Positions 161-29,679 of a DNA stretch of 32,000 bases are shown piece after piece (within the stretch, counting starts at the first letter, position 1; every line of letters starts with the position of its first letter). The notes beneath the pieces were generated by a model that was given only the letters and a program-made list of their open reading frames with translations, did not search any database and was not told the DNA's origin. The stretch spans positions 1 through 32,000 of the forward strand of contig NZ_CP011042.1 of NCBI RefSeq assembly GCF_002310835.1, written 5' to 3'. Source of the stretch: Pseudoalteromonas tetraodonis (GTDB taxonomy: Bacteria > Pseudomonadota > Gammaproteobacteria > Enterobacterales > Alteromonadaceae). The position numbers were made by a program, and so were the translations under genes.

Positions 161-1399
161 ATGTCTATCAATAAAAACGCGCTAGATACTTATCGACTTT
201 TGAAAGCAACCGCAGAAGTTGCTGAAAAATCACTAGAAGGACGTATCCAACATTATCGCGCCCATCTTAAATCTGAAGAAAAAGAATTAAGAACTTACAC
301 CCAAAAAGCAGCAGCTGATTTACTTGGCTGTAATAATCGTACCTTAAAAAGACGCCATGACAATGGTGACTTTGACGATTTAAATATAAAACGCGGTGCA
401 AACGGCCACTATGCCTACACCTTAGTTAATATTTTTGCTATGGCTGATATTATGGACATACAGCCTGATCACCGCGCATCAACAGACAAACTCCAAGTTA
501 TTGTTATTAATTCATTAAAAGGTGGTTGTGGTAAAACAACAAGCATTGTTAACATTGCTGCTGCACTCGCTACCACTAACATTAAACGTTACCGTATCGG
601 TATAATTGATTTAGATCCTCAAGGGTCATCATCAAGCTTTTTCCCATCTTCAGAGCCCGATCCAATTACCGTTGGTGATTTGATGCGTGATTGCATTGAC
701 CTTGATGAAGGTGAAACATGGCCAGAATTTGTGTCTAATTCTTTTTTACCTACTCATATTCCTAATATTCGTGTTTTACCATCAGGTATGGATGACTTTT
801 ACTTTGAACACGAAACAGCAACATTACTCAAAGACACCTCCAATTATGAGCAAACACGCCATTACCACAAACTACTAGAACGAGTAATAAATCCGGTAAA
901 AGATGAGTTTGACATTCTTTTAATTGATACAGCGCCAACGCTTAACTTTATGTTTTACAATGCATTAATGGCTTCAACGGCGATGCTAATTCCGGTTCAC
1001 CCTGAAGCGGTAGACTTTGATGCAAATAATAAATATTTAAAACGTTTAGGTGAGATTTATCATACAGTTGCCGCTCTTGGCCATGATGGTTGGGATTTCA
1101 TGCAATTTTTAGTTACTAATTATGTGAAAGGCAATCACTCACAACGCGACATAGTTAAAGATGTGCGTAGTGCTTTTGGTCGCCAAGTAATGAGCTATCC
1201 TATCAATCATAGTTCAGCAATTACCGCCAGTTCATCGTCGTTCAATACTATCTTTGACCAAAAAGCATCTGACAGCTTAGCAAGTAGAGAGTCATTAATG
1301 CGCGCACAAGAAAATATCAAAGATGTAGTTGATGAACTCGAAATGCTAATTCGTTCTAATTGGCAATCCACTCAATCTAAATTAAATACGCCTAAGTAA
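161..1399 (+). CDS. parA: ParA-family partition ATPase, type Ia (long N-terminal extension before the ATPase core)
   Basis: 412-aa ORF. Deviant Walker A SLKGGCGKTT about 120 aa from the N-terminus, IIDLDPQG and LLIDTAP motifs. Immediately followed by a parB-like ORF. The size and N-terminal extension resemble P1/F/Vibrio chrII ParA. Confidence 0.9.
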   Translation: MSINKNALDTYRLLKATAEVAEKSLEGRIQHYRAHLKSEEKELRTYTQKAAADLLGCNNRTLKRRHDNGDFDDLNIKRGANGHYAYTLVNIFAMADIMDIQPDHRASTDKLQVIVINSLKGGCGKTTSIVNIAAALATTNIKRYRIGIIDLDPQGSSSSFFPSSEPDPITVGDLMRDCIDLDEGETWPEFVSNSFLPTHIPNIRVLPSGMDDFYFEHETATLLKDTSNYEQTRHYHKLLERVINPVKDEFDILLIDTAPTLNFMFYNALMASTAMLIPVHPEAVDFDANNKYLKRLGEIYHTVAALGHDGWDFMQFLVTNYVKGNHSQRDIVKDVRSAFGRQVMSYPINHSSAITASSSSFNTIFDQKASDSLASRESLMRAQENIKDVVDELEMLIRSNWQSTQSKLNTPK

Positions 1400-1414
1400 G
1401 GATGTTGACTAAAA

Positions 1415-2377
1415 ATGGCTAAAAAACGTAAAAATGACACCCGCTTAGATCCCTTTGCAACCGCTGTTGGCAGTAGCAGCTTAGATGCCCTTTTAGAGCA
1501 AGCCAATGCAGGCGATGTTATTCGTATGCCTGCTCCTAGTGATCCTAATCGGGAAATTACGCTTGTTTGTAAAGTGATAGCACATAACGAGATTGAAAAC
1601 TCAACTCAGGTTTATGGTAAAAATCGTCGCGTACAAGCGCTTTTAAACGAAAAGTCAGTCGCAGATATTCTTCCTGCTATTAAAGAAGATGGCCGTAATC
1701 AGCACCCTGCTCTATTGTGGGAGCAAGGTGATATGAGCCTTGTATTAGCTGGCTCTAGACGTCGTAAAGCCTGTATTTTAGGTGGCGCAGACTACCTCGT
1801 ATTGAGTTCTAGTGACTTTAGCGAGCAAGATGCCAAAGTACTTGCGGTTTCATCAGATCAATACATTGCCCCAAGTCTTTGGGAGTTGGGTCAAGCGTAT
1901 CAGCAAACTAGAAACGATCTTATTCAACAAGGCAAAAAAGGCTCGTACCGTGAAATTGCTGTTATTGAAGGGGTATCGCATACAGCGATTGCTGATGCGA
2001 TAAAAGCGTATGAGCAAATATCTGCAGATGTTATAGCCCTTTACCCAACAGCTAATCATGTTGGTAGAGAAGTTGCTAAAAAGCTGATTAACGCAAAGGA
2101 GCGCGATGAGGAAGCATTTAACGAGTTAGTTGTTGCACTTGCCAGCAATGATGAAATTAACGCCTTAGAAGCCGACGACAAGCGCGCTATGCTAATTACT
2201 AAATACCTAACTGCAGAGCCTAAAACAGCATCAAAACGTGAAGCGGTTTTAGAAAATGACTTTATTAGTGTGCAACGCAACCTTAAAAGTGGTGACGTTT
2301 CAATTAAAATAAATAATAAAGTGATGACAGACAAGCGCTTAGAGCAACTTACTAAGTTATTAAGTGCCTTTAATTAG
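1415..2377 (+). CDS. parB: ParB-family partition (centromere-binding) protein
   Basis: 320-aa ORF 15 nt downstream of parA. It has an arginine-rich LAGSRRRKA ParB-box-like motif and an HTH-like segment SYREIAVIEGVSHTAIADAIKA. Gene order is parA-parB. Confidence 0.8.
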   Translation: MAKKRKNDTRLDPFATAVGSSSLDALLEQANAGDVIRMPAPSDPNREITLVCKVIAHNEIENSTQVYGKNRRVQALLNEKSVADILPAIKEDGRNQHPALLWEQGDMSLVLAGSRRRKACILGGADYLVLSSSDFSEQDAKVLAVSSDQYIAPSLWELGQAYQQTRNDLIQQGKKGSYREIAVIEGVSHTAIADAIKAYEQISADVIALYPTANHVGREVAKKLINAKERDEEAFNELVVALASNDEINALEADDKRAMLITKYLTAEPKTASKREAVLENDFISVQRNLKSGDVSIKINNKVMTDKRLEQLTKLLSAFN

Positions 2378-2773: not shown

Positions 2774-5700
2774 TTGTTTTTAAATTTTAATACTTTGAGT
2801 GACATGTCTGCTAACTTATCAAAAAATGATTTAATGGCTATTTTTGAAGAAATTAAAAATGAGCAGGCTACCCAGTTTCCTCTTTCTGAGCGATTCATAA
2901 AAAAATTATTTAAACCCGCGGTGTTGGCCAAAGGAAAATCGTACTATAAAAACGGCCAAATCAGTTGGTTAGAACATAATGCAGATTTTTCTGTGGTTGA
3001 CTCTACGGTGCAAGGTGATAAAGGAATCGCGTTCAACCAACGTATTGAGATCAGTAAATTACCAACTGGTTATTCGGTCGATACCCACTGTACCTGTAAT
3101 GTTAAAACAAAATGCCGCCATTTGGCCGCTATTTTGTTAAAGCTTAAAATTGAGCATTCTGGTGAGTACGGTGAAGATTATTTTATTAATGATTGGTTTA
3201 GTGAACTAAGCGCACTTAAAAACACCGACCAAGCTCAACCCTCGCAAGTATTACTGTTTGTATTAGACATAGAAAACAACAAAGTATTTTTAACCCCTAA
3301 AATTGCCAACTACGATAAAAATAATAATTATGCACTTGGGCGAAATTTAACTGAGCAACAGCTTAATAGTTTTGTAACCCCTAGCGATTTGCTCGAAAGT
3401 GATTTTAGATTATATAGCTGGATCCGATCGCAAAATGCGGTCGGTAATATTGAGCTTAAAGGTCAATGGGGTTTTAATGCGCTGCAGCAATTACTAGCCA
3501 CAGACAGATTATTTTTACAACGCTCTCGAGTACCTATTAAAGCGCAACCTGGTTTACCTCTTAACTTTGTTTGGGAAAAACAAAAAGAGGTAACCCAGTT
3601 AAAAATTCACTTGGATCAAATTCCTAATTGGGCGTTAATTAAAACAACGCCGCCTATCTACTTAGATTTAGATAAATATAAATTAGGCCGTATTCGTACG
3701 CCCCTCAGTGCTGATGAAATTGCGCACTTACAAACTATACCGGCGCTGCACGATACAAACTTTGACCGAATTTATAAGCAGCTTGCTGATAACTTTGGAG
3801 TAGGTGTTATTCCCCACCCTACTAATACACCAAGCACGCCTGTTAAGTCGTTGAGTAATGCCATACTTAAAGTTAGCATGTCGGGCTCAGTAATGGCTAT
3901 TTCGTTATCGTTTAAGTATAAAAATAAAAACTATTTAGCGGGCACCGCGCCTGCAAAGTTAATTAATAGCGCCTTTGAAAACACCGTTACCAATGAGTTA
4001 GTCAACTTAGGCTTCGATTTTTGTAAAGGGGGTTTACACAGCGAGTTTATTTTTAGTCAGGAATCGGCTATTCACTTACATTGGCTAGTTCACGAGGTAC
4101 TGCCCAGCTTTAAACAACGCGGTTGGCAAGTATCAATGAGCAAAGTTAATGTTGCTGATACTAAAAGCCAAATCTCATTGCATGTAAACAGAGCTGCAAA
4201 TCATCAAATGCATAGTAAAGTAATGCTAAACGATACCAAAGTAGCCACCCTATTAAATGTAAATAATAAACTGTATGAATCGTTAAACCGTCAAAGTGAA
4301 TTATTTTATTACTACCCTGTTGGCCGTCAATTTGGGGTTATTGATAAAGCAGCGTTTAATTTATTAATTGAGTTTAAACTGCGGTTTGAATTTATTAAAA
4401 CCCGTGACGAATTTAACATTCCGCTTTCATACTTACCTGAATTAGTTCAGCACACAGCTATTAATGTAGAGCTACATGACCCGTCATTAGAGCGTTACCT
4501 TGATGAACTAAATAACGATGCACTGCTATCACCTAACACTGCCATTCATGGCTTACACGATTCTGTAGTATTAAGAGAGTATCAGCAAGAAGGCGTGGCT
4601 TGGCTTAACTTTTTAAAGCGTAATCAGTTAGGTGGGATTTTAGCGGATGATATGGGCTTGGGTAAAACGTTACAAGTGATTGCCTACTTAGCAAGCTCAT
4701 ACAATACACCGCAAGCAGGGCCTACGCTTATTGTGTGCCCTACAAGTTTAGTGAGTAATTGGCAAAACGAAATTACCAAGTTCGCAAAAAGCTTAAAAGT
4801 GACCACTATTTTTGGTGCACACCGAAATGATTCGTTGCAGCATTTGGCACAAGCGCAGTGTATTTTAACCACGTATCCGCTATTAAAACGTGACATTGCT
4901 TATTACTCACCGCTGTATTTTGAAAACATTATTCTTGATGAAGCCCAGTATATTAAAAACGATACCGCACAAGTTTCGCGGTTGGTAAAACGTTTAAATG
5001 CCGACTTTAAGCTTTGTTTAAGTGGCACACCAATTGAAAACAATTTATTTGAATTAAAGTCATTGCTCGACTTTGCAATGCCCTCGCTTTTAGGTTCACA
5101 GGCGCACTTTAAGCAGCATTTTCAAGGCCCTATTGAACGCGAAAGCAACATTGAACGTGCAGAGCAACTAAAAGCGTTAATTATGCCGTTTATTTTGCGC
5201 CGTACTAAAGCCCAAGTGGCTCAAGAGCTGCCGCAAAAAACCGAACTTATAAAAGAGTTTGAGTTTGAACCTAAACAAAAAGATATGTATCACGGCATTA
5301 CGCGTGCGCTTGAAGAAAAGCTCATCGATTTATTTGCTGAGCAAGGTGTGCAAAAAAGTAAACTCGCCTTTTTAGAAGCCTTGTTAAAGTTACGCCAAAT
5401 TTGTTGTCATCCTAAACTCATTGAACCTGAAACTGAGGCAGCCAGTGCTAAATTAGAATGGTTATCGAGCCACTTACCTTTAATGCTAAGCCTTGGCCGT
5501 AAGGTCATTATATTCAGTCAGTTTACCTCTGCCCTTGATTTAATTGCCGAGCGTTTAAATGAGCTAAATATTAATTTTAGTATGCTAACGGGGCAAACGC
5601 GTCATCGGGATAAAGTAATAGACGAATTTACCAGTGGTAACACTTCTGTGTTTTTAATTAGCTTAAAAGCCGGTGGCACAGGGCTTAATTTAACCCAAGC

Positions 5701-5950
5701 CGACACGGTTATTCATTTTGATCCATGGTGGAACCCTGCCGTTGAAAAACAAGCCACCGATCGTGCTTATCGAATTGGGCAAACAAACCCAGTGTTTGTT
5801 TATAAACTAATTATGGCTAACTCTATTGAACAAAAAGTATTTCAAATGCAGCAAGATAAGCAAGCGCTTGTAGATGCATTATTTACCGAAAAATCAATGA
5901 GTTTTACCCAGTTTGACGAACAACAAATGCTGTCTTTAATTAAAAGCTAA
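2774..5950 (+). CDS. SNF2-family DNA/RNA helicase with N-terminal SWIM zinc finger
   Basis: 1058-aa ORF. SWIM CxC...CxH signature CTCNVKTKCRHLAAIL. Helicase motif I LADDMGLGKT, motif II DEAQYIKN, motif VI QATDRAYRIGQ. The true start may be the MSANL Met a few codons downstream. Confidence 0.9.
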   Translation: MFLNFNTLSDMSANLSKNDLMAIFEEIKNEQATQFPLSERFIKKLFKPAVLAKGKSYYKNGQISWLEHNADFSVVDSTVQGDKGIAFNQRIEISKLPTGYSVDTHCTCNVKTKCRHLAAILLKLKIEHSGEYGEDYFINDWFSELSALKNTDQAQPSQVLLFVLDIENNKVFLTPKIANYDKNNNYALGRNLTEQQLNSFVTPSDLLESDFRLYSWIRSQNAVGNIELKGQWGFNALQQLLATDRLFLQRSRVPIKAQPGLPLNFVWEKQKEVTQLKIHLDQIPNWALIKTTPPIYLDLDKYKLGRIRTPLSADEIAHLQTIPALHDTNFDRIYKQLADNFGVGVIPHPTNTPSTPVKSLSNAILKVSMSGSVMAISLSFKYKNKNYLAGTAPAKLINSAFENTVTNELVNLGFDFCKGGLHSEFIFSQESAIHLHWLVHEVLPSFKQRGWQVSMSKVNVADTKSQISLHVNRAANHQMHSKVMLNDTKVATLLNVNNKLYESLNRQSELFYYYPVGRQFGVIDKAAFNLLIEFKLRFEFIKTRDEFNIPLSYLPELVQHTAINVELHDPSLERYLDELNNDALLSPNTAIHGLHDSVVLREYQQEGVAWLNFLKRNQLGGILADDMGLGKTLQVIAYLASSYNTPQAGPTLIVCPTSLVSNWQNEITKFAKSLKVTTIFGAHRNDSLQHLAQAQCILTTYPLLKRDIAYYSPLYFENIILDEAQYIKNDTAQVSRLVKRLNADFKLCLSGTPIENNLFELKSLLDFAMPSLLGSQAHFKQHFQGPIERESNIERAEQLKALIMPFILRRTKAQVAQELPQKTELIKEFEFEPKQKDMYHGITRALEEKLIDLFAEQGVQKSKLAFLEALLKLRQICCHPKLIEPETEAASAKLEWLSSHLPLMLSLGRKVIIFSQFTSALDLIAERLNELNINFSMLTGQTRHRDKVIDEFTSGNTSVFLISLKAGGTGLNLTQADTVIHFDPWWNPAVEKQATDRAYRIGQTNPVFVYKLIMANSIEQKVFQMQQDKQALVDALFTEKSMSFTQFDEQQMLSLIKS

Positions 5951-5979
5951 AATAATTTTAAAAAATCATGACGAGTTTT

Positions 5980-6007
5980 TGAACTTATTTAAATTGTAGG
6001 CGTCTAT
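5980..6007 (+). promoter_or_regulatory. sigmaE(ECF)-like promoter of sRNA unit 1
   Basis: TGAACTT (5980-5986), exactly 16 nt, then TCTAT (6003-6007). The same geometry is conserved in all three units although the spacers differ. Confidence 0.45.
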
Positions 6008-6012
6008 TAATA

Positions 6013-6119
6013 TGCTTGGTTAAATTGCAGTTTCTCCAAGCTTTCATGTTGATATCCCATATAGTAGTTACTAGACATAGTAATGATTAAGCCAGCCAGT
6101 AATGCGCTGGCTTTTTTTT
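6013..6119 (+). ncRNA. candidate small RNA, unit 1 of 3 tandem paralogs
   Basis: 5' hairpin GCTTGG...CCAAGC (6014-6041). Conserved single-stranded TTTCATGTTGATATCCC (6042-6058). Terminator hairpin at 6090-6111 plus T8. The 5' end is only inferred from promoter geometry. Confidence 0.55.
6090..6119 (+). terminator. Rho-independent terminator (sRNA unit 1)
   Basis: AGCCAGC ... GCTGGCT stem followed by 8 T. The T-tract is present only on the + strand. Confidence 0.85.
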
Positions 6120-6155
6120 GCTTTTAAAAATATTTATTTTTTATTTAATTTATTT

Positions 6156-6183
6156 TGAACTAATCACAAATGGCTGGGTCTAT
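6156..6183 (+). promoter_or_regulatory. sigmaE(ECF)-like promoter of sRNA unit 2
   Basis: TGAACTA (6156-6162), 16 nt, TCTAT (6179-6183). Confidence 0.45.
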
Positions 6184-6189
6184 TATTAT

Positions 6190-6288
6190 GCTTGTAGTTG
6201 ATGTGTTGTTATACAAGTTTCATGTTGATTTCCCTGTTTGATTACTAATTTAGTAATATTGAGCCAGCTTTATTAGCTGGCTTTTTTT
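6190..6288 (+). ncRNA. candidate small RNA, unit 2 of 3 tandem paralogs
   Basis: 5' hairpin CTTGTA...TACAAG. Conserved TTTCATGTTGATTTCCC (6218-6234). Small hairpin TTACTAatttTAGTAA. Terminator 6263-6288. Confidence 0.55.
6263..6288 (+). terminator. Rho-independent terminator (sRNA unit 2)
   Basis: GCCAGC tttatta GCTGGC followed by T7. Confidence 0.85.
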
Positions 6289-6320
6289 ATGCCTCAAATT
6301 CAACTTTTTTAAAATTATTT

Positions 6321-6348
6321 TGAACTAATTTAATCAGAGCGCGTCTAC
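6321..6348 (+). promoter_or_regulatory. sigmaE(ECF)-like promoter of sRNA unit 3
   Basis: TGAACTA (6321-6327), 16 nt, TCTAC (6344-6348). Confidence 0.45.
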
Positions 6349-6354
6349 AATTAT

Positions 6355-6469
6355 GCTTGTAGTTGATATGTTGTTTTACAAGTTTCATGTTGATTTCCCT
6401 GTTTGATTACTAATTTACTAATTTACTAATTTAGTAATATTGAGCCAGCTTTACTAGCTGGCTTTTTTT
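6355..6469 (+). ncRNA. candidate small RNA, unit 3 of 3 tandem paralogs
   Basis: Near-identical to unit 2: hairpin CTTGTA...TACAAG, seed TTTCATGTTGATTTCCC at 6383-6399. It also carries a TACTAATT x3 expansion (6408-6431). Terminator 6444-6469. Confidence 0.55.
6444..6469 (+). terminator. Rho-independent terminator (sRNA unit 3)
   Basis: GCCAGC tttacta GCTGGC followed by T7. Confidence 0.85.
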
Positions 6470-6554
6470 ATGCGCTTAATTTAGTGTTTTACCCTACTGC
6501 TAAAGAGCGTAATTCGTTATGATGGCATGTCACTAAATTTTAAAAGTTTATTCT

Positions 6555-8024
6555 ATGTTTACTTCGTTTTTATCCCATTTAGATTGGTTAAGTGTTGGTA
6601 CTGGCGCTATAGCCGGTATGGCTATTTTCAGCGTTGTATCAGTCCAGTTAAGTAAAAAAATAAAGCGCCAAGTGAGTGAGCAGCAACAAGAGTTATTGTT
6701 ATTACAAAGCCAGTATGAGCATACGCAAAATCAATATGCCTCTTTAGTGGAAGAGCACGACTTGTTAGGGCTTACTCATCAAGAGCAACGTGATCAGGCG
6801 CAACATTTTAAAACGCGATTAACTGAGCAAGAAAAACAAAGTCAACTTTATAATCAATATTGGCGTAAAACCGAAGCCGAGCTAACCGCCCTGCGCGAGC
6901 AATACAATCTGCGCGATGTCGAGCTTAATAATATACGCACCACCCTTGAGCAAAAGCAGCAACATTTCAGCGAGCAACTCGCCCATATAGAGCAAAGTAA
7001 AGAAACGCTTAAAAAAGAATTCGAAAATTTAGCCAATCAAATCTTAGAAGAAAAATCGCAAAAATTTAAAACCCTCAATCAAGAAAGCATAGAGCAGTTA
7101 CTCAAGCCGGTTCAAGGTGAGCTAAAAGGCTTTAGAGATAAAATGGAATCTATTCACGTTGAAGACTTAAAACAACGTGCTGCGCTTAAAACCGAACTAT
7201 TGCATTTACAAGCCAAAAGCCAAGCCATTACCGAGCAGGCTGACAAGCTCAGTAATGCGCTGCAAGGACAAAAGAAAACCCAAGGTAATTGGGGCGAGTT
7301 AATGCTTGAAAACGTGCTTGATAGCGCAGGACTTCGAGCTGGCACAGACTATAAACGCGAAGTGTCGTTTAATACCGAAGACGGCCGTCTTCGTCCTGAT
7401 GTGGTGGTGTATTTACCTCAAGGTCGCCACTTAGTGATTGATGCAAAAACATCGTTAAATGCCTATACCCGTTATGTAAATGCCGAAACAGAGCTGGAAT
7501 CTCAACAAGCGATTAAAGAGCATGTAAATGCCGTAACTTCCCGTATAAATGAGCTGGCCAGTAAATCGTATGACCGTTTACCAGGGATAAACTCGCCTGA
7601 GGTTGTTATTATGTTTGTACCGATTGAATCTGCGTTTGTAGAAGCACTTAAATACCAAAGCGACATTTACCAGCAAGCAATCGAAAAAAACATTTTGGTT
7701 GCTACTCCTACTACCCTGCTAACCAGTTTAAATATTGTTAAGCAGTTATGGCGCTTTGAAGAGCAAACTAAATATTCAAAAGAGCTGGCTAATCGTGCTG
7801 AGCGTTTTTACAGTAAGCTCAACGGCTTTTTAACCAGTATGGAAGGGGTGGGTAAACAGCTCGATAAAGCCAAAGAAACCTACGATAAAGCATTCTCTCA
7901 GTTATACCGTGGTAAAGGTAACTTAATTAAACAAGCCTCAGAATTTAAAGAGTTGGGTGTATCGGTGCAAAAAGAGTTACCTCAAGAAAGCGTTGAACGC
8001 GCTCACTTAGAGCTTGATGAATAA
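6555..8024 (+). CDS. rmuC: DNA recombination protein RmuC
   Basis: 489 aa. N-terminal TM segment, a long Q/E-rich coiled coil, then the RmuC-type core (GNWGELMLENVLDSAGL, RPDVVVYLPQGRHLVIDAKTSL, MFVPIESAF). Confidence 0.9.
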   Translation: MFTSFLSHLDWLSVGTGAIAGMAIFSVVSVQLSKKIKRQVSEQQQELLLLQSQYEHTQNQYASLVEEHDLLGLTHQEQRDQAQHFKTRLTEQEKQSQLYNQYWRKTEAELTALREQYNLRDVELNNIRTTLEQKQQHFSEQLAHIEQSKETLKKEFENLANQILEEKSQKFKTLNQESIEQLLKPVQGELKGFRDKMESIHVEDLKQRAALKTELLHLQAKSQAITEQADKLSNALQGQKKTQGNWGELMLENVLDSAGLRAGTDYKREVSFNTEDGRLRPDVVVYLPQGRHLVIDAKTSLNAYTRYVNAETELESQQAIKEHVNAVTSRINELASKSYDRLPGINSPEVVIMFVPIESAFVEALKYQSDIYQQAIEKNILVATPTTLLTSLNIVKQLWRFEEQTKYSKELANRAERFYSKLNGFLTSMEGVGKQLDKAKETYDKAFSQLYRGKGNLIKQASEFKELGVSVQKELPQESVERAHLELDE

Positions 8025-23252: not shown

Positions 23253-24812
23253 GTGTACTCAAGGAATGTTGATGTGTCTCAATCTCACGTGTTAAATATT
23301 AATACCATTGAAAAACAGGCTGTATTTGAACAAAGCGGCCTGCCCCCACAATTCAATTTAGAGCAGTTCATTAATTATCAAATAGCGTCTTTGCAAGGGT
23401 TGTCGGCGGTACAGCAAGCGATGGCTAAAGCCCAAAAGCCATTTTCAGGTGTGTCGGTAAATGCGTTAGCAAAAGTAGTAAACGATGTTGATTTATCAAA
23501 GCCTTTGGCTGACTTTCCGGCGGTGCTTGAAGAGCTAAAAGGCGTGTATTTAGATCATGCCGTGTATTTTCATCATCCTCGCTACATGGCGCATTTAAAC
23601 TGCCCTGTAACCTATCCTGCTGTGGTGGCCGAACACATTATTGCTGCTATTAATACCTCGGTAGATACGTGGGATCAAAGTGCAGGTGCGACCTTAATTG
23701 AGCAAAAGCTGATTGATTGGACATGCCAAAAAGCAGCATTGCCAAGCACTGCCGATGGAGTATTTACTAGTGGCGGCACACAATCAAACTTAATGGCAAT
23801 GTTAGTTGCTCGTGAAGTAGCAGTTAGCCGATATGCGCCAGAACATCAGGTAAAACTTCAGGGCTTACCAGCTGTTGCCTCGCGCTTTAAAATTTACTGC
23901 TCTGAGGTGGCGCATTTTAGTATTCAAAAAGCGGCGGCGTTATTGGGGCTCGGTTACAACGCTGTGGTGCCGGTGGCTACAAACAGCGAAATGCAAATGG
24001 ATATGCATGCACTTAAAACCGCCATAGCAACAAGCAAAGCGCAAGGCGATTTACCCATTGCAGTGGTTATTACCGCAGGTACAACCGATTTTGGCTCAAT
24101 CGATCCAATCCATAATATTGTCATGCTAGCTAAAGAAGAGCAGCTATGGTGCCACGTAGATGGCGCTTATGGCGGCGGTTTGTTGGTGAGCGAGCACCAC
24201 CGAAATGCGCTTAATGGCATTGAGTTGGTTGATTCAATAACGATTGATTATCACAAATCATTTATGCAACCGGTTAGTTGTAGTGCCTTTTTATTAAGTG
24301 ACAAACGCCATTTTAGCCACATTACTTTATATGCCGATTATTTAAACCCATTAGCAGAGGCTGGAAATGGCACGCCTAATTTGGTTGATAAAAGCCTACA
24401 AACCACCCGCCGTTTTGATGCCTTAAAGTTATGGCTAACACTGCGCACCACTGGAGAAGCACCGCTGGGTCGCGCGTTCGATAAAGTTATTGGCCTTGCG
24501 CGCCAAACGCATATTGTACTTAACGACCATCCCGACTTTGAAGTAGTAAATTACCCCGAGCTTAGTGCCTTGGTATTTAGATTTGCCCCTGATGATTTAA
24601 AACATGACCTTGATTTACTCGACTCTTTAAACCTGCATGTACGACAAACGTTTTTACAAACCGGTGAAGCCATGGTTGCCCGTACAAAAATAAATGGTCG
24701 TCATTACCTTAAATTTACATTGCTTAATGCGCAGTGCCAATTAACAGATGTACGCGCTGTTATTGAGAAAATTAGCCACATTGCATGGCAAACTTATAGG
24801 GAAATTGCATAA
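23253..24812 (+). CDS. PLP-dependent group II amino-acid decarboxylase (DesA/BibA; diaminobutyrate, lysine or ornithine decarboxylase type)
   Basis: 519 aa. PLP-lysine motif ITIDYHKSF, and TSGGTQSNL. First gene of the hydroxamate siderophore operon. The track start is GTG 23253; GTG 23274 has a better AAGGA Shine-Dalgarno. Confidence 0.9.
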   Translation: MYSRNVDVSQSHVLNINTIEKQAVFEQSGLPPQFNLEQFINYQIASLQGLSAVQQAMAKAQKPFSGVSVNALAKVVNDVDLSKPLADFPAVLEELKGVYLDHAVYFHHPRYMAHLNCPVTYPAVVAEHIIAAINTSVDTWDQSAGATLIEQKLIDWTCQKAALPSTADGVFTSGGTQSNLMAMLVAREVAVSRYAPEHQVKLQGLPAVASRFKIYCSEVAHFSIQKAAALLGLGYNAVVPVATNSEMQMDMHALKTAIATSKAQGDLPIAVVITAGTTDFGSIDPIHNIVMLAKEEQLWCHVDGAYGGGLLVSEHHRNALNGIELVDSITIDYHKSFMQPVSCSAFLLSDKRHFSHITLYADYLNPLAEAGNGTPNLVDKSLQTTRRFDALKLWLTLRTTGEAPLGRAFDKVIGLARQTHIVLNDHPDFEVVNYPELSALVFRFAPDDLKHDLDLLDSLNLHVRQTFLQTGEAMVARTKINGRHYLKFTLLNAQCQLTDVRAVIEKISHIAWQTYREIA

Positions 24813-26131
24813 TGGATAATCAACCTTACGATTTTATAGCTATTGGCCTTGGGCCATTTAACTTATCTTTAGCGTGTTTAAGTGAACCGCTCGAAGATGT
24901 AAAAAGCCTGTTTTTAGAGCAGCGCAGTGAATTTGATTGGCACCCAGGAATGATGCTTGAGGGCGTTACATTACAAACTCCGTTTATGTCGGATTTAGTA
25001 ACCATGGCAGATCCAACCAGCCAGTATAGCTTTTTAAATTATGCCAAATTAAATAATCGTTTATACCCGTTTTATATTCGCGAAAGCTTTTTTTTATTGC
25101 GCCGTGAATACAACTTATATTGCCAATGGGTTTGCTCGCAGCTTTCAAATGTTAACTTTGAACAAACAGTCACTCACGTTGAATTTTGCCCGCAAAGTGA
25201 GTGTTATACCGTTAGCTGTAACACCCCTAATGGCATACAACATTATGTGACTCGCCATATTGTTTTGGGCACAGGGCCTGCACCGTATATTCCTGATTGC
25301 GCTGTGCAAAGTAACTCAAATAACGTAATGCACAGTAGCGATTTTTGTCATCGGCTTGATGAATTAAAAGCGGCTAAACGGGTTACCGTGGTAGGGGCTG
25401 GACAAAGTGCAGCAGAAATTTACCACACCTTATTGCAGCAAGCAGTACCGCAAGGCTTGCAGTTAGATTGGATAGCACGCTCACCGCGCTATTTTCCGCT
25501 TGAGTATACTAAACTCACCCTTGAAATGACCTCTCCTGAGTATGTAGATTACTTTTATAATTTAAAAACTGAGCAGCGAGATTGGCTCAATCAAAACCAA
25601 AAAAATCTATTTAAGGGCATTAATGGCGATTTAATTAACGACATTTTCGACACCCTCTACGCGCAAAGCCTTGATGGGCCAATTTCTACTACATTTAAAA
25701 CTAACAGCAGGCTAACAGGTACTCAAAAAGTAGGTAAGCGTTTACTGACTGAGTTTTATCATCAGGAGCTTGAGCAGCCCTTTTCAATAGAAACCGACTT
25801 TTTAATTTGCGCCACGGGCTTTAAATATCAGCGCCCTGCTTTTTTAAATAATATTGCCCATCAACTACCCCAAGATGAGCAAGGTCGTTATTTAGTGAGC
25901 CGTGACTATGCGGTAGATACAGAGCAAAAACGTATTTTTGTACAAAATGCTGAGCAGCATACTCATGGTTTTGTAACTCCAGATTTAGGTATGGCTTGCT
26001 ACCGTAATAGTATTATTTTACGTGAAATTTTAGGTTATTCGCCTTATCAGGTTGAGCAAAAAATTGCTTTTCAAAACTTTGATTTAAGTGATGTCACCCT
26101 ATCAACACAACAGCAGAGTAGCGCCGCATGA
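24812..26131 (+). CDS. diamine/lysine N-hydroxylating flavin monooxygenase (IucD/AlcA/DesB/BibB family)
   Basis: 439 aa. FAD motif DFIAIGLGPFNLSLA, NADPH motif VVGAGQSAAEI. The start overlaps the upstream stop (TAATG). Confidence 0.9.
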   Translation: MDNQPYDFIAIGLGPFNLSLACLSEPLEDVKSLFLEQRSEFDWHPGMMLEGVTLQTPFMSDLVTMADPTSQYSFLNYAKLNNRLYPFYIRESFFLLRREYNLYCQWVCSQLSNVNFEQTVTHVEFCPQSECYTVSCNTPNGIQHYVTRHIVLGTGPAPYIPDCAVQSNSNNVMHSSDFCHRLDELKAAKRVTVVGAGQSAAEIYHTLLQQAVPQGLQLDWIARSPRYFPLEYTKLTLEMTSPEYVDYFYNLKTEQRDWLNQNQKNLFKGINGDLINDIFDTLYAQSLDGPISTTFKTNSRLTGTQKVGKRLLTEFYHQELEQPFSIETDFLICATGFKYQRPAFLNNIAHQLPQDEQGRYLVSRDYAVDTEQKRIFVQNAEQHTHGFVTPDLGMACYRNSIILREILGYSPYQVEQKIAFQNFDLSDVTLSTQQQSSAA

Positions 26132-27306
26132 GTCTTCGTTTAGCGCTAATTTTGCTGACGGTTATTTCGGTGGTATGCGATACCTTGCTGCTACCGTTTT
26201 ATCCGCAATTTTTTGCTAGTGAATTTGCTATTAGTAACGCCACTCTAATCGGCCTCTTTGTGGCTAACTGTTGTATTACTGTAATGCTGGCTTTACCGCT
26301 ATGGGCTAAGGTCGCTAAAAAATACAATGAATTGGCTTTGTGGTTAGTAACCCAAGTAGTAGCCGCTGGTTTTGGCCTGCTTTGCTACTTTGCGACCAAT
26401 GTGTGGGAGTTTTGGGTTTACTACCAACTTATGTTGGTGCTCAAGGCAAGCTACCTACTTATATACCCATTTGCACTGCGATTAGAGCAACAAACTAAGC
26501 ATTTATCTATTATTGGTTTGTTTTCTGTATTGATGCATTTTGGTGCGATTGGTGGTGCTTTAATTGGTGGTTACTTCTTTAGTTTAGCAGAGCCACGCTA
26601 TGCGTTATTACTCAGTAGTGCCGGTGACCTAATCCAGGTTTTATTATGCGCCTACTTAATGTATTCATTAAAAACAGGTATTTATCAGCAAGTAATAGCG
26701 ACTGAAAAACCGCGAGAACGTATTCCCTATTTTATTTGGCAATTTTGCTTTTTAAGTGTGGTGGTTTATTTTAGCGCGTTTTTAATTCGCCCTTTCTTTA
26801 CTACTCATTGGCAAGCATTAAACGCACAAAGCAGCACCTTGCAAAGCGCTGTTGTATACGCCATTCCTGCTTTTTCAGCGCTTGTTATGCTGGTTTTTAA
26901 CCATTTCAGGCAGCATCTACCACTGCCAACATTAAGCCGCACTAGCACTTTGTTATGTGCACTTATTTTAGGGGCGCTTGGGCTTTATTTACAAGCGCAG
27001 GCGTCGGTGGGGTTAGTGATTTTATCACGTGTTTTATATGGCTTTGCGCTATTTCAAGTGATGGTACTGCTAGAGGTAATGCTATTTGCTAAAAGTGAGC
27101 CTGCACATTACGGCAGCGACTTTGCCAAAGTGCACATTGCTCAAAATATCGGGGTTATTTTAGCGTCGTTACTAGTGGGTATGAGCGTAGAGCATCTTTC
27201 AACCACGGTTGTGTTTTACTTTGCTGCCATTGGCTTTGCAAGCCTTGCCTTTATTTTGCTTTGGCGGGTTAAGGCTGTTGCTCGAACTGCGCGTTCAGCG
27301 TCTTAG
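26128..27306 (+). CDS. MFS transporter (probable siderophore exporter)
   Basis: 392 aa with about 12 hydrophobic segments. ATGA overlap with the monooxygenase gene. Embedded in the biosynthetic operon. Confidence 0.75.
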   Translation: MSLRLALILLTVISVVCDTLLLPFYPQFFASEFAISNATLIGLFVANCCITVMLALPLWAKVAKKYNELALWLVTQVVAAGFGLLCYFATNVWEFWVYYQLMLVLKASYLLIYPFALRLEQQTKHLSIIGLFSVLMHFGAIGGALIGGYFFSLAEPRYALLLSSAGDLIQVLLCAYLMYSLKTGIYQQVIATEKPRERIPYFIWQFCFLSVVVYFSAFLIRPFFTTHWQALNAQSSTLQSAVVYAIPAFSALVMLVFNHFRQHLPLPTLSRTSTLLCALILGALGLYLQAQASVGLVILSRVLYGFALFQVMVLLEVMLFAKSEPAHYGSDFAKVHIAQNIGVILASLLVGMSVEHLSTTVVFYFAAIGFASLAFILLWRVKAVARTARSAS

Positions 27307-27330
27307 TTTTTAAGATTTATTGGAGTTTTT

Positions 27331-29679
27331 ATGTATTTTTCATCTTTTGTAAGCACCCTACAGCATACCGGCAAAGTAACGATGCGGTTATTACAGCAAA
27401 CAGATATGCCAACAATATGCGATTGGCTTAAGCAACCGTATGCGCACTTTTGGGGGATGCAGCAGCAAACCGAGCAACAAATAACTAAAGCGTATCAAGC
27501 TATTATTGATACGCCTCATCATCAGGCATACGTGATCGAGCAAAATAATAACCTATTGGCTTTAGTTGAGCTTTATAGCCCAGAGCACGAAAGCTTAATG
27601 AAAGCGGCGTACGAAGTTGAACCGAATGATGTGGGTATGCATATTTTATTAGCGCCTAACACGGCACCTAAGCACCATTTTAGTTTTGAAATGATGCAGT
27701 GCGTGCTGCAAAGTATTTTTGCTCAAAACAGCGCCGCTCGTGTTGTGGTTGAGCCTGACATTGCTAATAGTAAAATTCATACATTAAATAAGCGTTTGGG
27801 GTTTGTGCATACCCAGCAAATTCAACTGGGCGAAAAAGCCGCTTATTTAGGCTTTTGTAATAAAGCAGCCTTTGATAGGCACAGCCAACTATTTACTGAT
27901 TCGTTAGCGCCTTTACAAACTGATTACGTGATACAGCCACATTGGCAATGGGCAAATCGGCATTTACAAGCTAAAGCACTCACCGAGCTTGTGCACGAGC
28001 GTTTATTGGCCGCAGAGACAACAAAGCAAGGCTTTAAAGTGAATGTTGAAGGCGGTTACTTTATTTTTAATGGCCGTGCTATGGCACTAAACCATATTGA
28101 TATAGACGAGCCAAGCCTATGCTTTTACAACCTTAACGAAGAGCTGCAGCCGCTAGATGTGTTGCACTTTTTTAGTATGCAAGGGCCTGCGCTAGGTTTA
28201 ACGGGTAAGCGCCTTGCCACCTACCTTGAAGAGCTAAATGCTACTTTAGCCAGTGCGTGCTTTAAACGCGAAAATAACACCTTAACAGCGGCGCAGTTAG
28301 CTAATTTAGGGCTGCAAAAAATAGAAGCTGCAATGAGTGAAGGTCACCCTGCGTTTGTGGCTAATAATGGCCGCATTGGTTTTAGTAAAGCTGACTTTTT
28401 ACGTTATGCGCCAGAAGTAGGCAAACCGTTTAAAATACTGTGGTTAGCAGCGCATAAAGCGGTATGCGACTTTGCCCATAGTGAATACTTTGCCGATTAC
28501 CCAAGCCATATAAGTGATGAGCTAGATTTAACCACCCGAGATGCGTTTAACAAAGCGCTAAAAGCTCAAAACCTTAACCCCGATGATTACTTACTCATTC
28601 CTGCTCACCCTTGGCAGTACCAACACAAATTGAGTGTGGTATTTGCAAATGAGTTGGCAAATCAGCGATTAGTGTATTTAGGTGAAGGTGACGATTTATA
28701 TCAAGCGCAACAATCAATTCGGACCTTATATAATTGCTCGCACCCGCATAAGCCGTATTTAAAAGTGGCGTTGTCGATTTTAAATATGGGATTTATGCGT
28801 GGCCTATCGCGTGCTTACATGGCGGTGACTCCTGCCATTAACGATTGGGTATTTGAAAAGGTTAGCCAAGATCAACAACTCGCAGGCGCTAATTTTACAG
28901 CGCTTAGAGAATACGCCACCTTAGGTTATGCCCATCATACGTTTGAGCAACACGCCCTTGGGGATACACCCTATCGTAAAATGTTTGCCTGCTTATGGCG
29001 AGAAAACCCAAACCATAATTTAAATAGTGATGAACAACTGACCACTATGGCAGCGTTATTACACTTAGATAATAATGGCCAAAGTTTAGTGGGCGAATGG
29101 ATAGCGCAAAGTGGTTTGAGCACGCAGCAGTGGTTACATGAGTACTTTAATGCCTATTTAATTCCGCTAGTACATTGCTTTTACGCGCATAAATTAGTGT
29201 TTATGCCCCACGGTGAAAACCTCATTTTAAAGCTTAAAAATTCGGTGCCAGTGGGCGCATATATGAAAGACATAGGTGAAGAGGTTGCCTTACTTAATAG
29301 CACTGAAGTATTGCCTGCAGGGGTTGAACGTATTCATGTTTCTATGCCTAAAGAGCTTGAGCTGTTAAGTATATTTACCGATGTATTTGACTGCTTCTTT
29401 AGATACTTAGTGGCAATTTTAGTGCGAGAAGAGCGTATTACAGAGCATGACTTTTGGCAGTGTGTTACGCAAAGTGTTAAAGCATATCAACATGCTAACC
29501 CTGCTTTAAATGAGCGATTTAAAGAGTATGACTTTTTTAGTGATGAGTTTGCTCACTCTTGTTTAAACCGCTTACAGCTGGGTAATAATGAGCAAATGGT
29601 TGATTTAACGGATCCGGCAGGTAGTTTGCAGTTTGCTGGTAACTTAAACAACCCCGTATCGGCAAAGCTGTATGGCTAA
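27331..29679 (+). CDS. fused N-hydroxydiamine acyltransferase (IucB/AlcB/DesC-like) and IucA/IucC NIS synthetase (BibC-like)
   Basis: 782 aa. The N-terminal ~180 aa carries WLKQPYAHFWGM and VVVEPDIANSK (siderophore acyltransferase type). It is followed by IucA/IucC hallmarks IPAHPWQ, QSIRTL and MPHGENL, and a C-terminal FhuF-like helper region. Confidence 0.9.
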   Translation: MYFSSFVSTLQHTGKVTMRLLQQTDMPTICDWLKQPYAHFWGMQQQTEQQITKAYQAIIDTPHHQAYVIEQNNNLLALVELYSPEHESLMKAAYEVEPNDVGMHILLAPNTAPKHHFSFEMMQCVLQSIFAQNSAARVVVEPDIANSKIHTLNKRLGFVHTQQIQLGEKAAYLGFCNKAAFDRHSQLFTDSLAPLQTDYVIQPHWQWANRHLQAKALTELVHERLLAAETTKQGFKVNVEGGYFIFNGRAMALNHIDIDEPSLCFYNLNEELQPLDVLHFFSMQGPALGLTGKRLATYLEELNATLASACFKRENNTLTAAQLANLGLQKIEAAMSEGHPAFVANNGRIGFSKADFLRYAPEVGKPFKILWLAAHKAVCDFAHSEYFADYPSHISDELDLTTRDAFNKALKAQNLNPDDYLLIPAHPWQYQHKLSVVFANELANQRLVYLGEGDDLYQAQQSIRTLYNCSHPHKPYLKVALSILNMGFMRGLSRAYMAVTPAINDWVFEKVSQDQQLAGANFTALREYATLGYAHHTFEQHALGDTPYRKMFACLWRENPNHNLNSDEQLTTMAALLHLDNNGQSLVGEWIAQSGLSTQQWLHEYFNAYLIPLVHCFYAHKLVFMPHGENLILKLKNSVPVGAYMKDIGEEVALLNSTEVLPAGVERIHVSMPKELELLSIFTDVFDCFFRYLVAILVREERITEHDFWQCVTQSVKAYQHANPALNERFKEYDFFSDEFAHSCLNRLQLGNNEQMVDLTDPAGSLQFAGNLNNPVSAKLYG

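What the first reader, a model, noticed from the sequence alone, without database searches (positions are those of the whole stretch)
5975..6470. Three tandem paralogous sRNA-like units with sigmaE-type promoters and an anti-RBS/start-codon seed
Three units of about 165-175 bp are repeated head-to-tail between the SNF2 gene and rmuC. Each contains four elements.
- A promoter-like element: TGAACT(T/A), exactly 16 nt, TCTA(T/C). The spacing is conserved while the spacer sequence is not. It resembles the RpoE/ECF consensus GGAACTT-N16-TCNAA as I recall it.
- A 5' hairpin with a compensatory change between units (GCTTGG/CCAAGC in unit 1, GCTTGTA/TACAAG in units 2 and 3).
- A conserved unpaired word TTTCATGTTGAT(A/T)TCCC.
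- A strong + strand intrinsic terminator.

The conserved word is complementary to GGGA-N8-ATGAAA, that is, a Shine-Dalgarno plus a Met-Lys start such as a signal-peptide gene would have. sigmaE-dependent sRNAs that silence outer-membrane protein mRNAs (MicA, RybB, VrrA) are the obvious analogy. I do not recognise these sequences as any named sRNA.
Basis: partly seen in the sequence, partly recalled or inferred. Interest (0 to 1): 0.7.

Follow-up and report, generated by a model that had tools for sequence, protein, structure and literature searches.

The report
Tandem envelope-stress small RNA genes
The gap between two DNA-repair genes on the second chromosome of a marine Pseudoalteromonas holds three sibling genes for roughly 100-nt regulatory RNAs; they form an undescribed family, found in this genus only, that appears to be switched on by the envelope-stress sigma factor and to block the ribosome-binding sites of target mRNAs.

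Summary
Window 5980-6469 (+) holds three head-to-tail units. Each has a sigmaE-type promoter (TGAACT[T/A], 16 nt, TCTA[T/C]), a 5' hairpin, a single-stranded word and an intrinsic terminator. The predicted RNAs are 106, 99 and 115 nt.

No Rfam family matches, and no paper in the library holds the word.

The units belong to a family seen here only in Pseudoalteromonas. There are 1 to 6 tandem copies, always just downstream of the same SNF2 helicase gene on chromosome II. I found 106 copies in 41 loci.

- **Promoter:** the hexamers are invariant while the spacer varies freely.
- **Structure:** 90.9% of cells pair, against 24-47% in slid controls. All 12 pairs of the 5' hairpin show compensatory changes.
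- **Core word:** UGUUGAU..CCC is nearly invariant and unpaired. The C-run varies from 3 to 6, so it is not coding.

The best reading is sibling trans-acting sRNAs, probably RpoE-dependent, that mask the Shine-Dalgarno and start codon of their targets.

A scan of one complete chromosome II gave two predicted targets. One is the anti-sigma factor gene chrR (20 contiguous bp; 0 of 100 shuffles reach it for unit 1, 4 of 100 for unit 4). The other is a TonB-dependent outer-membrane receptor gene, whose complementary site is kept in five species. Both are predictions.

Expression, RpoE dependence, Hfq binding and targets on chromosome I were not testable. I file it as a new member of a known kind.

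The parts
2774..5950 (+). SNF2-family helicase gene. The sRNA array always begins just downstream of its stop codon.
   Evidence: Pfam SNF2-rel_dom and Helicase_C. Same neighbour in every locus whose upstream gene was read.
5980..6007 (+). Unit 1 promoter: -35 TGAACTT (5980-5986), 16-nt spacer, -10 TCTAT (6003-6007), with a T-rich stretch upstream.
   Evidence: Architecture as in PMC1312014.
6014..6119 (+). Unit 1 predicted sRNA, 106 nt. Stem-loop 1 is 6014-6041, the single-stranded seed region 6042-6061, stem-loop 2 6062-6089, and the terminator plus U-tail 6090-6119. The +1 at G6014 is inferred.
   Evidence: MFE -30.3 kcal/mol, z -4.23. CM R1 83.2 bits. Terminator found.
6042..6058 (+). Unit 1 seed word TTTCATGTTGATATCCC.
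   Evidence: Unpaired in the MFE fold.
6156..6183 (+). Unit 2 promoter: TGAACTA (6156-6162), 16 nt, TCTAT (6179-6183).
6190..6288 (+). Unit 2 predicted sRNA, 99 nt. Stem-loop 1 is 6190-6218, the seed region 6219-6240 (the word starts at 6218), stem-loop 2 6241-6257, and the terminator plus U-tail 6261-6288.
   Evidence: MFE -23.8 kcal/mol, z -3.49. CM 87.3 bits. Terminator found.
6218..6234 (+). Unit 2 seed word TTTCATGTTGATTTCCC.
6321..6348 (+). Unit 3 promoter: TGAACTA (6321-6327), 16 nt, TCTAC (6344-6348).
6355..6469 (+). Unit 3 predicted sRNA, 115 nt. Stem-loop 1 is 6355-6383, the seed region 6384-6405, stem-loop 2 6406-6438 (lengthened by the 8-nt repeat TTACTAAT), and the terminator plus U-tail 6442-6469.
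   Evidence: MFE -25.7 kcal/mol, z -3.44. CM 72.4 bits..
6383..6399 (+). Unit 3 seed word TTTCATGTTGATTTCCC.
6555..8024 (+). rmuC, the downstream neighbour in this species. It is not part of the element: in P. phenolica and P. luteoviolacea other genes lie between the sRNA and rmuC.
   Evidence: Pfam RmuC..

Best explanation
The region is an array of three sibling genes for small trans-acting base-pairing RNAs of about 100-115 nt.

Each gene has its own promoter of the RpoE (sigmaE/sigma24, envelope-stress ECF) type. Transcription most likely starts at the conserved G six nt after the -10 element and ends at a strong intrinsic terminator.

The RNA has a 5' stem-loop starting at +1, a stretch of about 20 nt that stays single-stranded, a small second stem-loop, and a terminator hairpin with a U-tail. 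This is the usual layout of Hfq-type sRNAs.

The single-stranded stretch carries the near-invariant core A-UGUUGAU-(UU)-CCC. It is complementary to GGG(AA)AUCAACAU(G), that is, a Shine-Dalgarno element, a spacer and a start codon. The RNAs therefore most likely bind translation-initiation regions, block ribosome entry and lower synthesis of the encoded proteins when sigmaE is active.

Predicted targets on chromosome II are the anti-sigma factor gene chrR and a TonB-dependent outer-membrane receptor gene. Further targets on chromosome I are expected.

Shown: the gene anatomy, its conservation, structure covariation, seed accessibility in predicted folds, and complementarity to the two sites. 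Inferred: transcription, RpoE dependence, Hfq use and repression of the targets.
For: - **Anatomy and chance controls:**
- **Unbiased synteny test:** loci were fetched through RmuC relatives, not through the RNA. P. translucida-like loci have 4 copies, P. shioyasakiensis 5, P. lipolytica 1 and P. luteoviolacea 1. All lie right after the SNF2 gene and all have the same promoter hexamers and seed core.
- **Genus restriction:** the scan of 185,579 species genomes gave 45 Pseudoalteromonas loci plus 14 scattered single hits. None of the 14 had a significant match to the covariance model.
- **Family size:** CM R1 finds 106 copies with E<1e-5 in 41 loci.
- **Covariation:** 90.9% of cells pair against 24-47% when partners are slid. 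19 of 28 pairs have double changes, including all 12 in stem-loop 1. 0 of 500 shuffles reach the score. Frequent G-U pairs fit only the + strand.
- **Promoter logo from 90 distinct upstream sequences:** TGAACT is near 2 bits per position and GTCTA is at 2 bits. The spacer carries 0.05-0.9 bits, falling to 0.05-0.4 just upstream of the -10. A T-rich region lies upstream. This matches GGAACTT, a preferred 16-nt spacer, (T/C)GGTCAAAA, a 5/6-nt discriminator, a purine start and an A/T-rich UP region (PMC1312014).
- **Seed:** it is invariant and unpaired.
- **chrR site:** it is the best non-self site on the whole 680-kb chromosome II of strain HL-AS2. It has 20 contiguous bp and -27.8 kcal/mol, or -26.8 with window units 2/3. 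It ranks first among 670 predicted initiation regions for three of the four paralogues. 0 of 100 shuffles reach it for unit 1 and 4 of 100 for unit 4.
- **chrR site conservation:** it is invariant in 40 loci of that clade, although ChrR protein identity to the query is about 76% in most and nearby synonymous sites vary.
- **Receptor site:** its initiation region keeps seed complementarity in five species. In P. fuliginea this is 16 contiguous bp, with a matching sRNA/mRNA double change.
Against: - There is no expression data. The sRNA lists of P. fuliginea BSW20308 that I could read do not include the locus.
- The -10 (TCTAY) differs from E. coli TCAAA at two of five positions.
- I found no independent sigmaE-regulon promoter of this genus to compare with.
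- Pseudoalteromonas has several ECF sigma factors.
- chrR complementarity is lost in P. mariniglutinosa, P. luteoviolacea and another clade that keep the seed. chrR therefore cannot be the constraint that holds the seed.
- On the whole-chromosome control, 3 of 60 shuffled seeds reach -27.8 kcal/mol somewhere.
- The receptor site is only at about the 5% level of shuffled minima.
- Neither target locus could be read in the window's own species.
Confidence: 0.65

Rival explanations
1. They are sRNA genes as described, but another sigma factor transcribes them. This could be another ECF sigma that recognises a GAAC-type -35, or sigma70 with an activator. The inducing signal would then not be outer-membrane stress.
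For: The -10 TCTAY is not identical to TCAAA. No second promoter of this type was found on chromosome II to anchor the regulon. At least one other ECF sigma is encoded on chromosome II.
Against: That other ECF (the ChrR-paired one) has its own, clearly different promoter, TGATCC-N16-CGTA. No sigma70-like promoter precedes the units on the + strand. The full match to sigmaE architecture includes spacer length, GTC and the A/T-rich upstream region.
Confidence: 0.2
2. The RNAs do not act by base-pairing. They might titrate a protein, or act in cis on the flanking SNF2 or rmuC genes, for example as a set of attenuators.
For: The position next to the SNF2 gene is strictly conserved. The target predictions are statistical only.
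Against: - Each unit has its own promoter and a full terminator.
- rmuC is not always the downstream gene.
- The RNAs contain no GGA motifs of the CsrB type (direct reading).
- The most conserved part is a single-stranded anti-Shine-Dalgarno/start word, as in base-pairing sRNAs.
Confidence: 0.08
3. The units are non-functional repeats, such as miniature mobile elements or duplicated terminator regions, kept by recombination and not by selection.
For: Copy number varies from 1 to 6. It varies even within the species, with a hybrid unit that points to unequal crossing-over.
Against: They occupy a single syntenic site per genome. The conservation pattern is selective: hexamers and seed are invariant while the spacer and loops are free. 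Stems change by compensation across more than 40 species. In HL-AS2, whose chromosome II was read in full, the units occur nowhere else on it.
Confidence: 0.04
4. The units encode very small peptides.
For: ATG, TTG or GTG is frequent at the 5' end, and an ATG lies inside the word.
Against: ORF lengths differ among units (3, 9 and 17 codons). AAG and AGG also occur at the first position. The C-run after the internal ATG varies from 3 to 6 nt, which shifts the frame. No Shine-Dalgarno precedes either ATG.
Confidence: 0.03

Closest known systems
RybB, MicA and MicL (Enterobacteriaceae); VrrA and MicV (Vibrio): sigmaE-dependent Hfq sRNAs
   Same: They have a sigmaE-type promoter, a length of about 80-140 nt, an intrinsic terminator with a U-tail, and a short conserved single-stranded seed that targets mRNAs of envelope proteins. 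They belong to the envelope-stress response (PMC6694218, PMC1804206).
   Different: - No sequence or structure homology: no match to any of them even at E up to 10.
- The shared seed CRCUGCUUUU is absent.
- The seed here follows a 5' hairpin; in RybB and MicV it lies at the 5' end.
- There are up to six tandem copies.
- The best predicted target on chromosome II is an anti-sigma factor gene.
LhrC1-5 of Listeria monocytogenes (multicopy envelope-stress sRNAs). This is from my own recollection and was not checked in the library.
   Same: They are sibling sRNAs, partly arranged in tandem and induced by cell-envelope stress. They use C-rich (UCCC) single-stranded motifs to pair with Shine-Dalgarno regions of mRNAs for surface proteins.
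   Different: They are from a Gram-positive organism, are controlled by the LisRK two-component system and not by an ECF sigma, and carry several UCCC motifs per RNA. There is no sequence relation.
Tandem sibling sRNAs OmrA/OmrB (E. coli) and PrrF1/PrrF2 (Pseudomonas). This is from my own recollection.
   Same: They are adjacent paralogous sRNA genes, each with its own promoter and terminator, sharing a seed and targeting outer-membrane receptor mRNAs (OmrA/B).
   Different: They have two copies only, different regulators (OmpR, Fur) and unrelated sequences.

Membership tests
RpoE (sigmaE, ECF02-type) dependent promoter | -35 motif GGAACTT | tested here: met
   TGAACT[T/A]A: 6 of 7 positions in unit 1 (TGAACTT), 5 of 7 in units 2 and 3 (TGAACTA). 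GAACT is in 89 of 90 distinct upstream sequences. Consensus from PMC1312014.
RpoE (sigmaE, ECF02-type) dependent promoter | Spacer of 15-19 nt between GGAACTT and the -10 pentamer, with 16 preferred | tested here: met
   Exactly 16 nt in all three window units and in nearly all family members.
RpoE (sigmaE, ECF02-type) dependent promoter | -10 motif (T/C)GGTCAAAA | tested here: inconclusive
   The motif here is (C)GTCTA(C/T)T. GTC and the A at pentamer position 4 match; positions 3 and 5 differ (T and C/T for A). It is invariant in the family.
RpoE (sigmaE, ECF02-type) dependent promoter | 5/6-nt discriminator, purine start, A/T-rich UP region | tested here: met
   A conserved G lies 6 nt after TCTAY, and a T-rich stretch precedes the -35. 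The start site itself is not mapped.
RpoE (sigmaE, ECF02-type) dependent promoter | Transcription depends on RpoE | not testable with these tools
   This needs rpoE induction or depletion, or in vitro transcription.
Hfq-type trans-acting base-pairing sRNA | Stand-alone gene with its own promoter and an intrinsic terminator with a U-tail | tested here: met
   Three + strand terminators with 7-8 U were found. Promoters as above.
Hfq-type trans-acting base-pairing sRNA | Conserved, structurally accessible seed | tested here: met
   The core UGUUGAU..CCC is invariant or nearly so. It is unpaired in the MFE folds.
Hfq-type trans-acting base-pairing sRNA | Conserved secondary structure | tested here: met
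   90.9% paired, 19 of 28 pairs with double changes, controls far lower.
Hfq-type trans-acting base-pairing sRNA | Hfq binding and regulation of targets by pairing | not testable with these tools
   Only predicted duplexes are available.
Rfam RybB / MicA / VrrA and other curated sRNA families | Match to the family covariance model | tested here: not met
   No match at gathering score anywhere in the window. None of these families appears even at E up to 10; the best match of any family is 28.8 bits against a 51.4 cutoff.
RybB/MicV/VrrA seed group | Seed CRCUGCUUUU | tested here: not met
   Absent from both strands of the intergenic region. Motif from PMC6694218.
CsrB/RsmZ-type protein-sequestering sRNA | Multiple GGA motifs in loops | tested here: not met
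   There is no GGA in any of the three predicted RNAs (sequences).
Small-peptide gene | Conserved reading frame | tested here: not met
   Frame-shifting C-run length and variable ORF lengths and start triplets.

The most novel reading that the evidence does not exclude
The sRNAs couple two sigma-factor systems. Envelope stress (RpoE) induces them. They then pair over the Shine-Dalgarno and start codon of chrR, which overlaps the stop codon of its partner ECF sigma gene. This lowers anti-sigma synthesis and so switches on, or resets, the singlet-oxygen/photo-oxidative ECF regulon. That would be an sRNA acting on an anti-sigma factor to build a sigma cascade, with gene dosage tuned by tandem copy number.
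Probability: 0.25. Interest if true: 0.75.

Novelty: new member of a known kind. Interest (0 to 1): 0.55.

Why it matters
SigmaE-dependent sRNAs form the repressing arm of the envelope-stress response, but they are known mainly from enterobacteria and Vibrio.

This family would give that arm to Pseudoalteromonas, a widespread marine and cold-adaptation model genus. It has an independent seed, which shows that the same regulatory solution arose again from unrelated sequence.

The array changes copy number between and within species (1 to 6). This makes it a natural system for studying how sibling sRNAs are born, diverge in their seed flanks and are lost.

The predicted pairing with an anti-sigma factor mRNA, if real, would be an unusual link between two stress regulons.

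The covariance model built here could be the basis of a new Rfam family.

Tried and rejected
- **Rfam:** nothing at gathering or permissive thresholds.
- **Tandem Repeats Finder:** it misses the array and finds only the 8-nt repeat in unit 3.
- **Literature:**
  - Searching for the seed string gave only unrelated primer and guide hits.
  - Searches for Pseudoalteromonas transcriptome and sRNA papers found no description.
  - The P. fuliginea BSW20308 supplements list no sRNA at 681,974-682,914 of NZ_CP013139.1.
  - The original sRNome paper is not held.
- **Viral contigs:** 30 single matches to the word, none with a significant match to the covariance model, so chance.
- **Pattern matches outside Pseudoalteromonas:** 14 loci, none significant by the model, so chance.
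- **Targets inside the window and in about 490 kb of fetched Pseudoalteromonas loci:** only one 2-mismatch site (18903), and it is not at a gene start.
- **The sRNA promoter as that of the ChrR-paired ECF sigma:** rejected, because that operon uses TGATCC-N16-CGTA.
- **Other sigmaE-type promoters on chromosome II to calibrate the motif:** hits were at or below chance and lay inside genes.
- **chrR of the window's own species:** clusters were listed, but none is named P. tetraodonis, and the fetched assemblies differ from those carrying the window's RmuC.
- **chrR as the universal target:** rejected, because the site is degraded in three clades that keep the seed.
Full report
**1. What is in the window**

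The 604-bp gap between an SNF2-family helicase gene (2774-5950) and rmuC (6555-8024) contains three head-to-tail units on the + strand. Each unit has four elements.

- A promoter-like element: TGAACT(T/A), exactly 16 nt, TCTA(T/C). The positions are 5980-6007, 6156-6183 and 6321-6348.
- A hairpin that begins at a conserved G six nt after the -10 element.
- The word TTTCATGTTGAT(A/T)TCCC, at 6042, 6218 and 6383.
- A small second hairpin and a GC-rich hairpin followed by 7-8 T.

The word occurs three times in the 32 kb and nowhere else, even with three mismatches allowed. Chance expects 0.18, and 0 of 100 shuffles gave three. The terminator scan finds three + strand terminators against 0.2 expected, and no sigma70-like promoter on the + strand.

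The predicted RNAs are 6014-6119, 6190-6288 and 6355-6469. They fold with z-scores of -4.2, -3.5 and -3.4, and the word is left unpaired.

**2. Organism and genomic place**

RmuC is 99% identical to that of Pseudoalteromonas tetraodonis. The window starts with a ParA-type gene and its partner. The homologous region in other strains lies on records labelled chromosome 2, or on 'plasmids' of 660-984 kb. The array is therefore near the origin of chromosome II.

**3. It is a gene family, not a local oddity**

I first fetched loci through RmuC relatives, so that nothing about the RNA was assumed. Contigs of the same species carry three units, and one carries four. A P. translucida-like group has four, P. 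shioyasakiensis five, P. lipolytica one and P. luteoviolacea one. In every case the array starts directly after the SNF2 stop codon, and the promoter hexamers and the core ATGTTGAT..CCC are the same.

P. phenolica has a unit with the same promoter at the same place but a different word, UUUAUUUCCCCCC. One locus has lost synteny and has no unit next to rmuC.

A pattern scan of one genome for each of 185,579 species required TTGAACT-N16-GTCTA-N30-50-ATGTTGAT. It returned 45 Pseudoalteromonas loci and 14 scattered single hits in unrelated phyla. A covariance model built from 91 distinct units gave none of those 14 a significant match (best E=0.22). It found 106 copies with E<1e-5 in 41 Pseudoalteromonas loci, with 1 to 6 per locus. 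As far as exact-pattern scanning can tell, the family is restricted to this genus.

**4. Structure**

On the model-guided alignment, 90.9% of cells form standard pairs. The figure is 24-47% when the 3' partners are slid by 1-3 columns. 19 of 28 pairs show changes on both sides, including all 12 pairs of the 5' hairpin. No shuffle out of 500 reaches the observed covariation score.

That alignment leans towards the model's structure. However, independent single-sequence folds of the 91 units give the same three hairpins. Abundant G-U pairs, which would be A-C on the other strand, together with the U-tails, fix the strand as +.

**5. Promoter**

The logo comes from 90 distinct upstream sequences and reads as follows.

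- A T-rich stretch upstream.
- TGAACT (1.9-2.0 bits per position), then A/T, then A.
- A spacer whose information stays below 0.9 bit and falls to 0.05-0.4 bit just upstream of the -10.
- GTCTA (2.0 bits each), then C/T, then T.
- About five weakly conserved bases, then a conserved TGC.

Rhodius et al. (PMC1312014) describe E. coli sigmaE promoters as follows: GGAACTTTT, a spacer of 15-19 nt with 16 strongly preferred, (T/C)GGTCAAAA, a 5/6-nt discriminator, a purine start, and A/T-rich upstream sequences.

The units fit in the -35, spacer length, GTC, discriminator length to the conserved G, and the upstream region. They differ at two positions of the -10 pentamer (TCTAY against TCAAA).

The only other ECF system I could inspect is the ChrR-paired sigma on chromosome II. 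It has a clearly different promoter of its own, TGATCC-N16-CGTA. I could not find an independent RpoE-regulon promoter of this genus to calibrate the motif. RpoE dependence is therefore a well-founded inference, not a result.

**6. Not coding, not a known family**

The first triplet is ATG, TTG, GTG, AAG or AGG. ORFs from it run 3, 9 or 17 codons. The C-run after the internal ATG varies from 3 to 6 nt.

Rfam has no match at gathering thresholds. At E up to 10 there are only terminator-driven noise hits, and RybB, MicA and VrrA are not among them. The CRCUGCUUUU seed shared by RybB, MicV and VrrA (PMC6694218) is absent. No paper in the library contains the word.

**7. How it most likely works**

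The most conserved part of the RNA is the single-stranded core A-UGUUGAU-(UU)-CCC. Its complement, GGG(AA)AUCAACAU(G), reads as a Shine-Dalgarno element, a spacer and a start codon. The sequence on the 5' side of the core varies between siblings (UUUC, AUC, AUU, CAC). This is what one expects if siblings share a core but extend pairing into different second codons. The likely mechanism is occlusion of translation-initiation regions, as for many Hfq-dependent sRNAs.

**8. Search for targets**

Chromosome I could not be reached with the tools. Chromosome II of strain HL-AS2 (NZ_CP133572.1, 680,547 bp, four units) is held in the plasmid collection. I fetched it whole and scanned it with the four seed regions.

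*chrR.* The best non-self site on either strand is the initiation region of a ChrR-family anti-sigma factor gene. It overlaps the last codons of its partner ECF sigma gene. The mRNA 5'-GAAAUGGGAGAUCAGCAUGAUU-3' forms 20 contiguous pairs (two G-U) with sRNA 5'-AUUAUGUUGAUUUCCCAUUU-3' of HL-AS2 unit 1.

| Seed variant | Duplex energy with the chrR site (kcal/mol) |
|---|---|
| HL-AS2 unit 1 | -27.8 |
| HL-AS2 unit 4 | -27.5 |
| Window units 2/3 | -26.8 |
| Window unit 1 | -23.8 |
| Commonest variant in the genus | -32.1 |

Among 670 predicted initiation regions, chrR ranks first for three of the four siblings. No shuffled seed out of 100 reaches it for unit 1, and 4 of 100 do for unit 4. On the whole-chromosome control, 3 of 60 shuffles reach that energy somewhere. 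The weight of the evidence therefore lies in the position of the site, not in the energy.

The 22-nt site is invariant in 40 loci of the haloplanktis/arctica/agarivorans/undina-type clade. This holds although ChrR protein identity to the HL-AS2 query is about 76% in most of them and synonymous sites just upstream and downstream vary.

The site is degraded in P. mariniglutinosa, P. luteoviolacea and a third clade, all of which keep the seed. chrR can therefore be a target in part of the genus, but it cannot be what holds the seed constant.

*TonB-dependent receptor.* The second initiation-region hit is a 1,068-aa TonB-dependent outer-membrane receptor gene next to an S1/P1 nuclease gene. Its site is kept in five species of three clades, in the form GGGAAA[U/A][C/-]AACAU[A/U]AUG.

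In P. fuliginea the first sibling pairs over 16 contiguous bases. There the mRNA reads CAUUAU and the sRNA AUAAUG, where other species have CAUAAU and AUUAUG. This is one compensating double change. Its energy in HL-AS2 is only at about the 5% level of shuffled minima.

Both targets are predictions. Neither locus could be read in the window's own species.

**9. Comparison with known systems**

Functionally the nearest relatives are the sigmaE-dependent sRNAs RybB, MicA and MicL of enterobacteria and VrrA and MicV of Vibrio. Membership in any of them is excluded by the model search and by the seed.

From my own recollection, two other groups resemble it. Listeria LhrC siblings share the use of tandem copies, envelope stress and UCCC anti-Shine-Dalgarno motifs. 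OmrA/B and PrrF1/2 share the tandem arrangement.

This is a new family of a known kind. Its distinctive points are the independent seed placed after a 5' hairpin, the fixed position behind one helicase gene on chromosome II, the variable dosage of 1 to 6 copies, and the possible link to an anti-sigma factor.

**10. Verdict**

- That these are independently transcribed sRNA genes: about 0.9.
- That RpoE drives them: about 0.7.
- That they act by masking initiation regions: about 0.65.
- That chrR or the receptor gene is a true target: about 0.4 each.

Overall interest is moderate (0.55). It is a clean, testable, undescribed regulator family in an ecologically important genus, but of a familiar type.

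Noticed in passing
L001:2250-2915, compared with window 5975-6470: Copy number differs within the species. One assembly has four units. The extra one combines the promoter of unit 3 with the body of unit 2, as expected from unequal crossing-over.
   Followed up: partly
window 6407-6438: An 8-nt tandem repeat (TTACTAAT, 4 copies) lengthens stem-loop 2 of unit 3. The four-unit strain has one more copy (L001:2791-2915).
   Followed up: partly
L039:460-1734: A group II intron reverse transcriptase/maturase gene (RVT_1 and GIIM domains) lies just upstream of the array, where the SNF2 gene lies in other strains. The first unit is missing in this strain.
   Followed up: no
L105:3670-3850; also L052:2371-2473, L075:1360-1461 (-), L087:3275-3376 (-), L080:3571-3668: In the P. 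fuliginea/distincta group the array ends with a longer, divergent unit. Read in L105 only: its -35 is GAATTA and not GAACT, it has extra 5' hairpins, and its seed is ACAUGUUGAUUUUCCC. The covariance model gives it 41-77 bits.
   Followed up: partly
L044:1283-1398 (P. phenolica): A syntenic unit has the same promoter and a terminator but a different single-stranded word (UUUAUUUCCCCCC). It may be a diverged relative with other targets. In P. phenolica and P. luteoviolacea, a 66-68-aa ORF and an OmpR-type response regulator gene lie between it and rmuC.
   Followed up: no
window 161-2377: A ParA-type ATPase gene is followed by a 320-aa ORF with no Pfam match, annotated elsewhere as a transcriptional regulator. 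Together with a terminus-site-binding protein gene nearby in strain HL-AS2, this suggests the partition/origin region of chromosome II.
   Followed up: no
window 23253-31373: This is a siderophore biosynthesis cluster of the NRPS-independent type. It includes a PLP-dependent decarboxylase, a lysine/ornithine N-monooxygenase, and an acetyltransferase-IucA/IucC-FhuF fusion.
   Followed up: no
L110:34300-43700 (NZ_CP133572.1 about 233,900-243,300): An ECF sigma/ChrR operon has its own TGATCC-N16-CGTA promoter. It is followed by genes for DUF523/DUF1722, photolyase, cyclopropane-fatty-acid synthase and others. From my recollection, this is the layout of the singlet-oxygen stress regulon.
   Followed up: partly
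PMC11882849, Supplementary Data 6 (NZ_CP013139.1): In the P. fuliginea BSW20308 list, numbering jumps from sRNA0109 (659 kb) to sRNA0115 (684.9 kb). The array at 682.0-682.8 kb could be among the unlisted sRNA0110-0114 of the earlier sRNome study, which is not held.
   Followed up: partly
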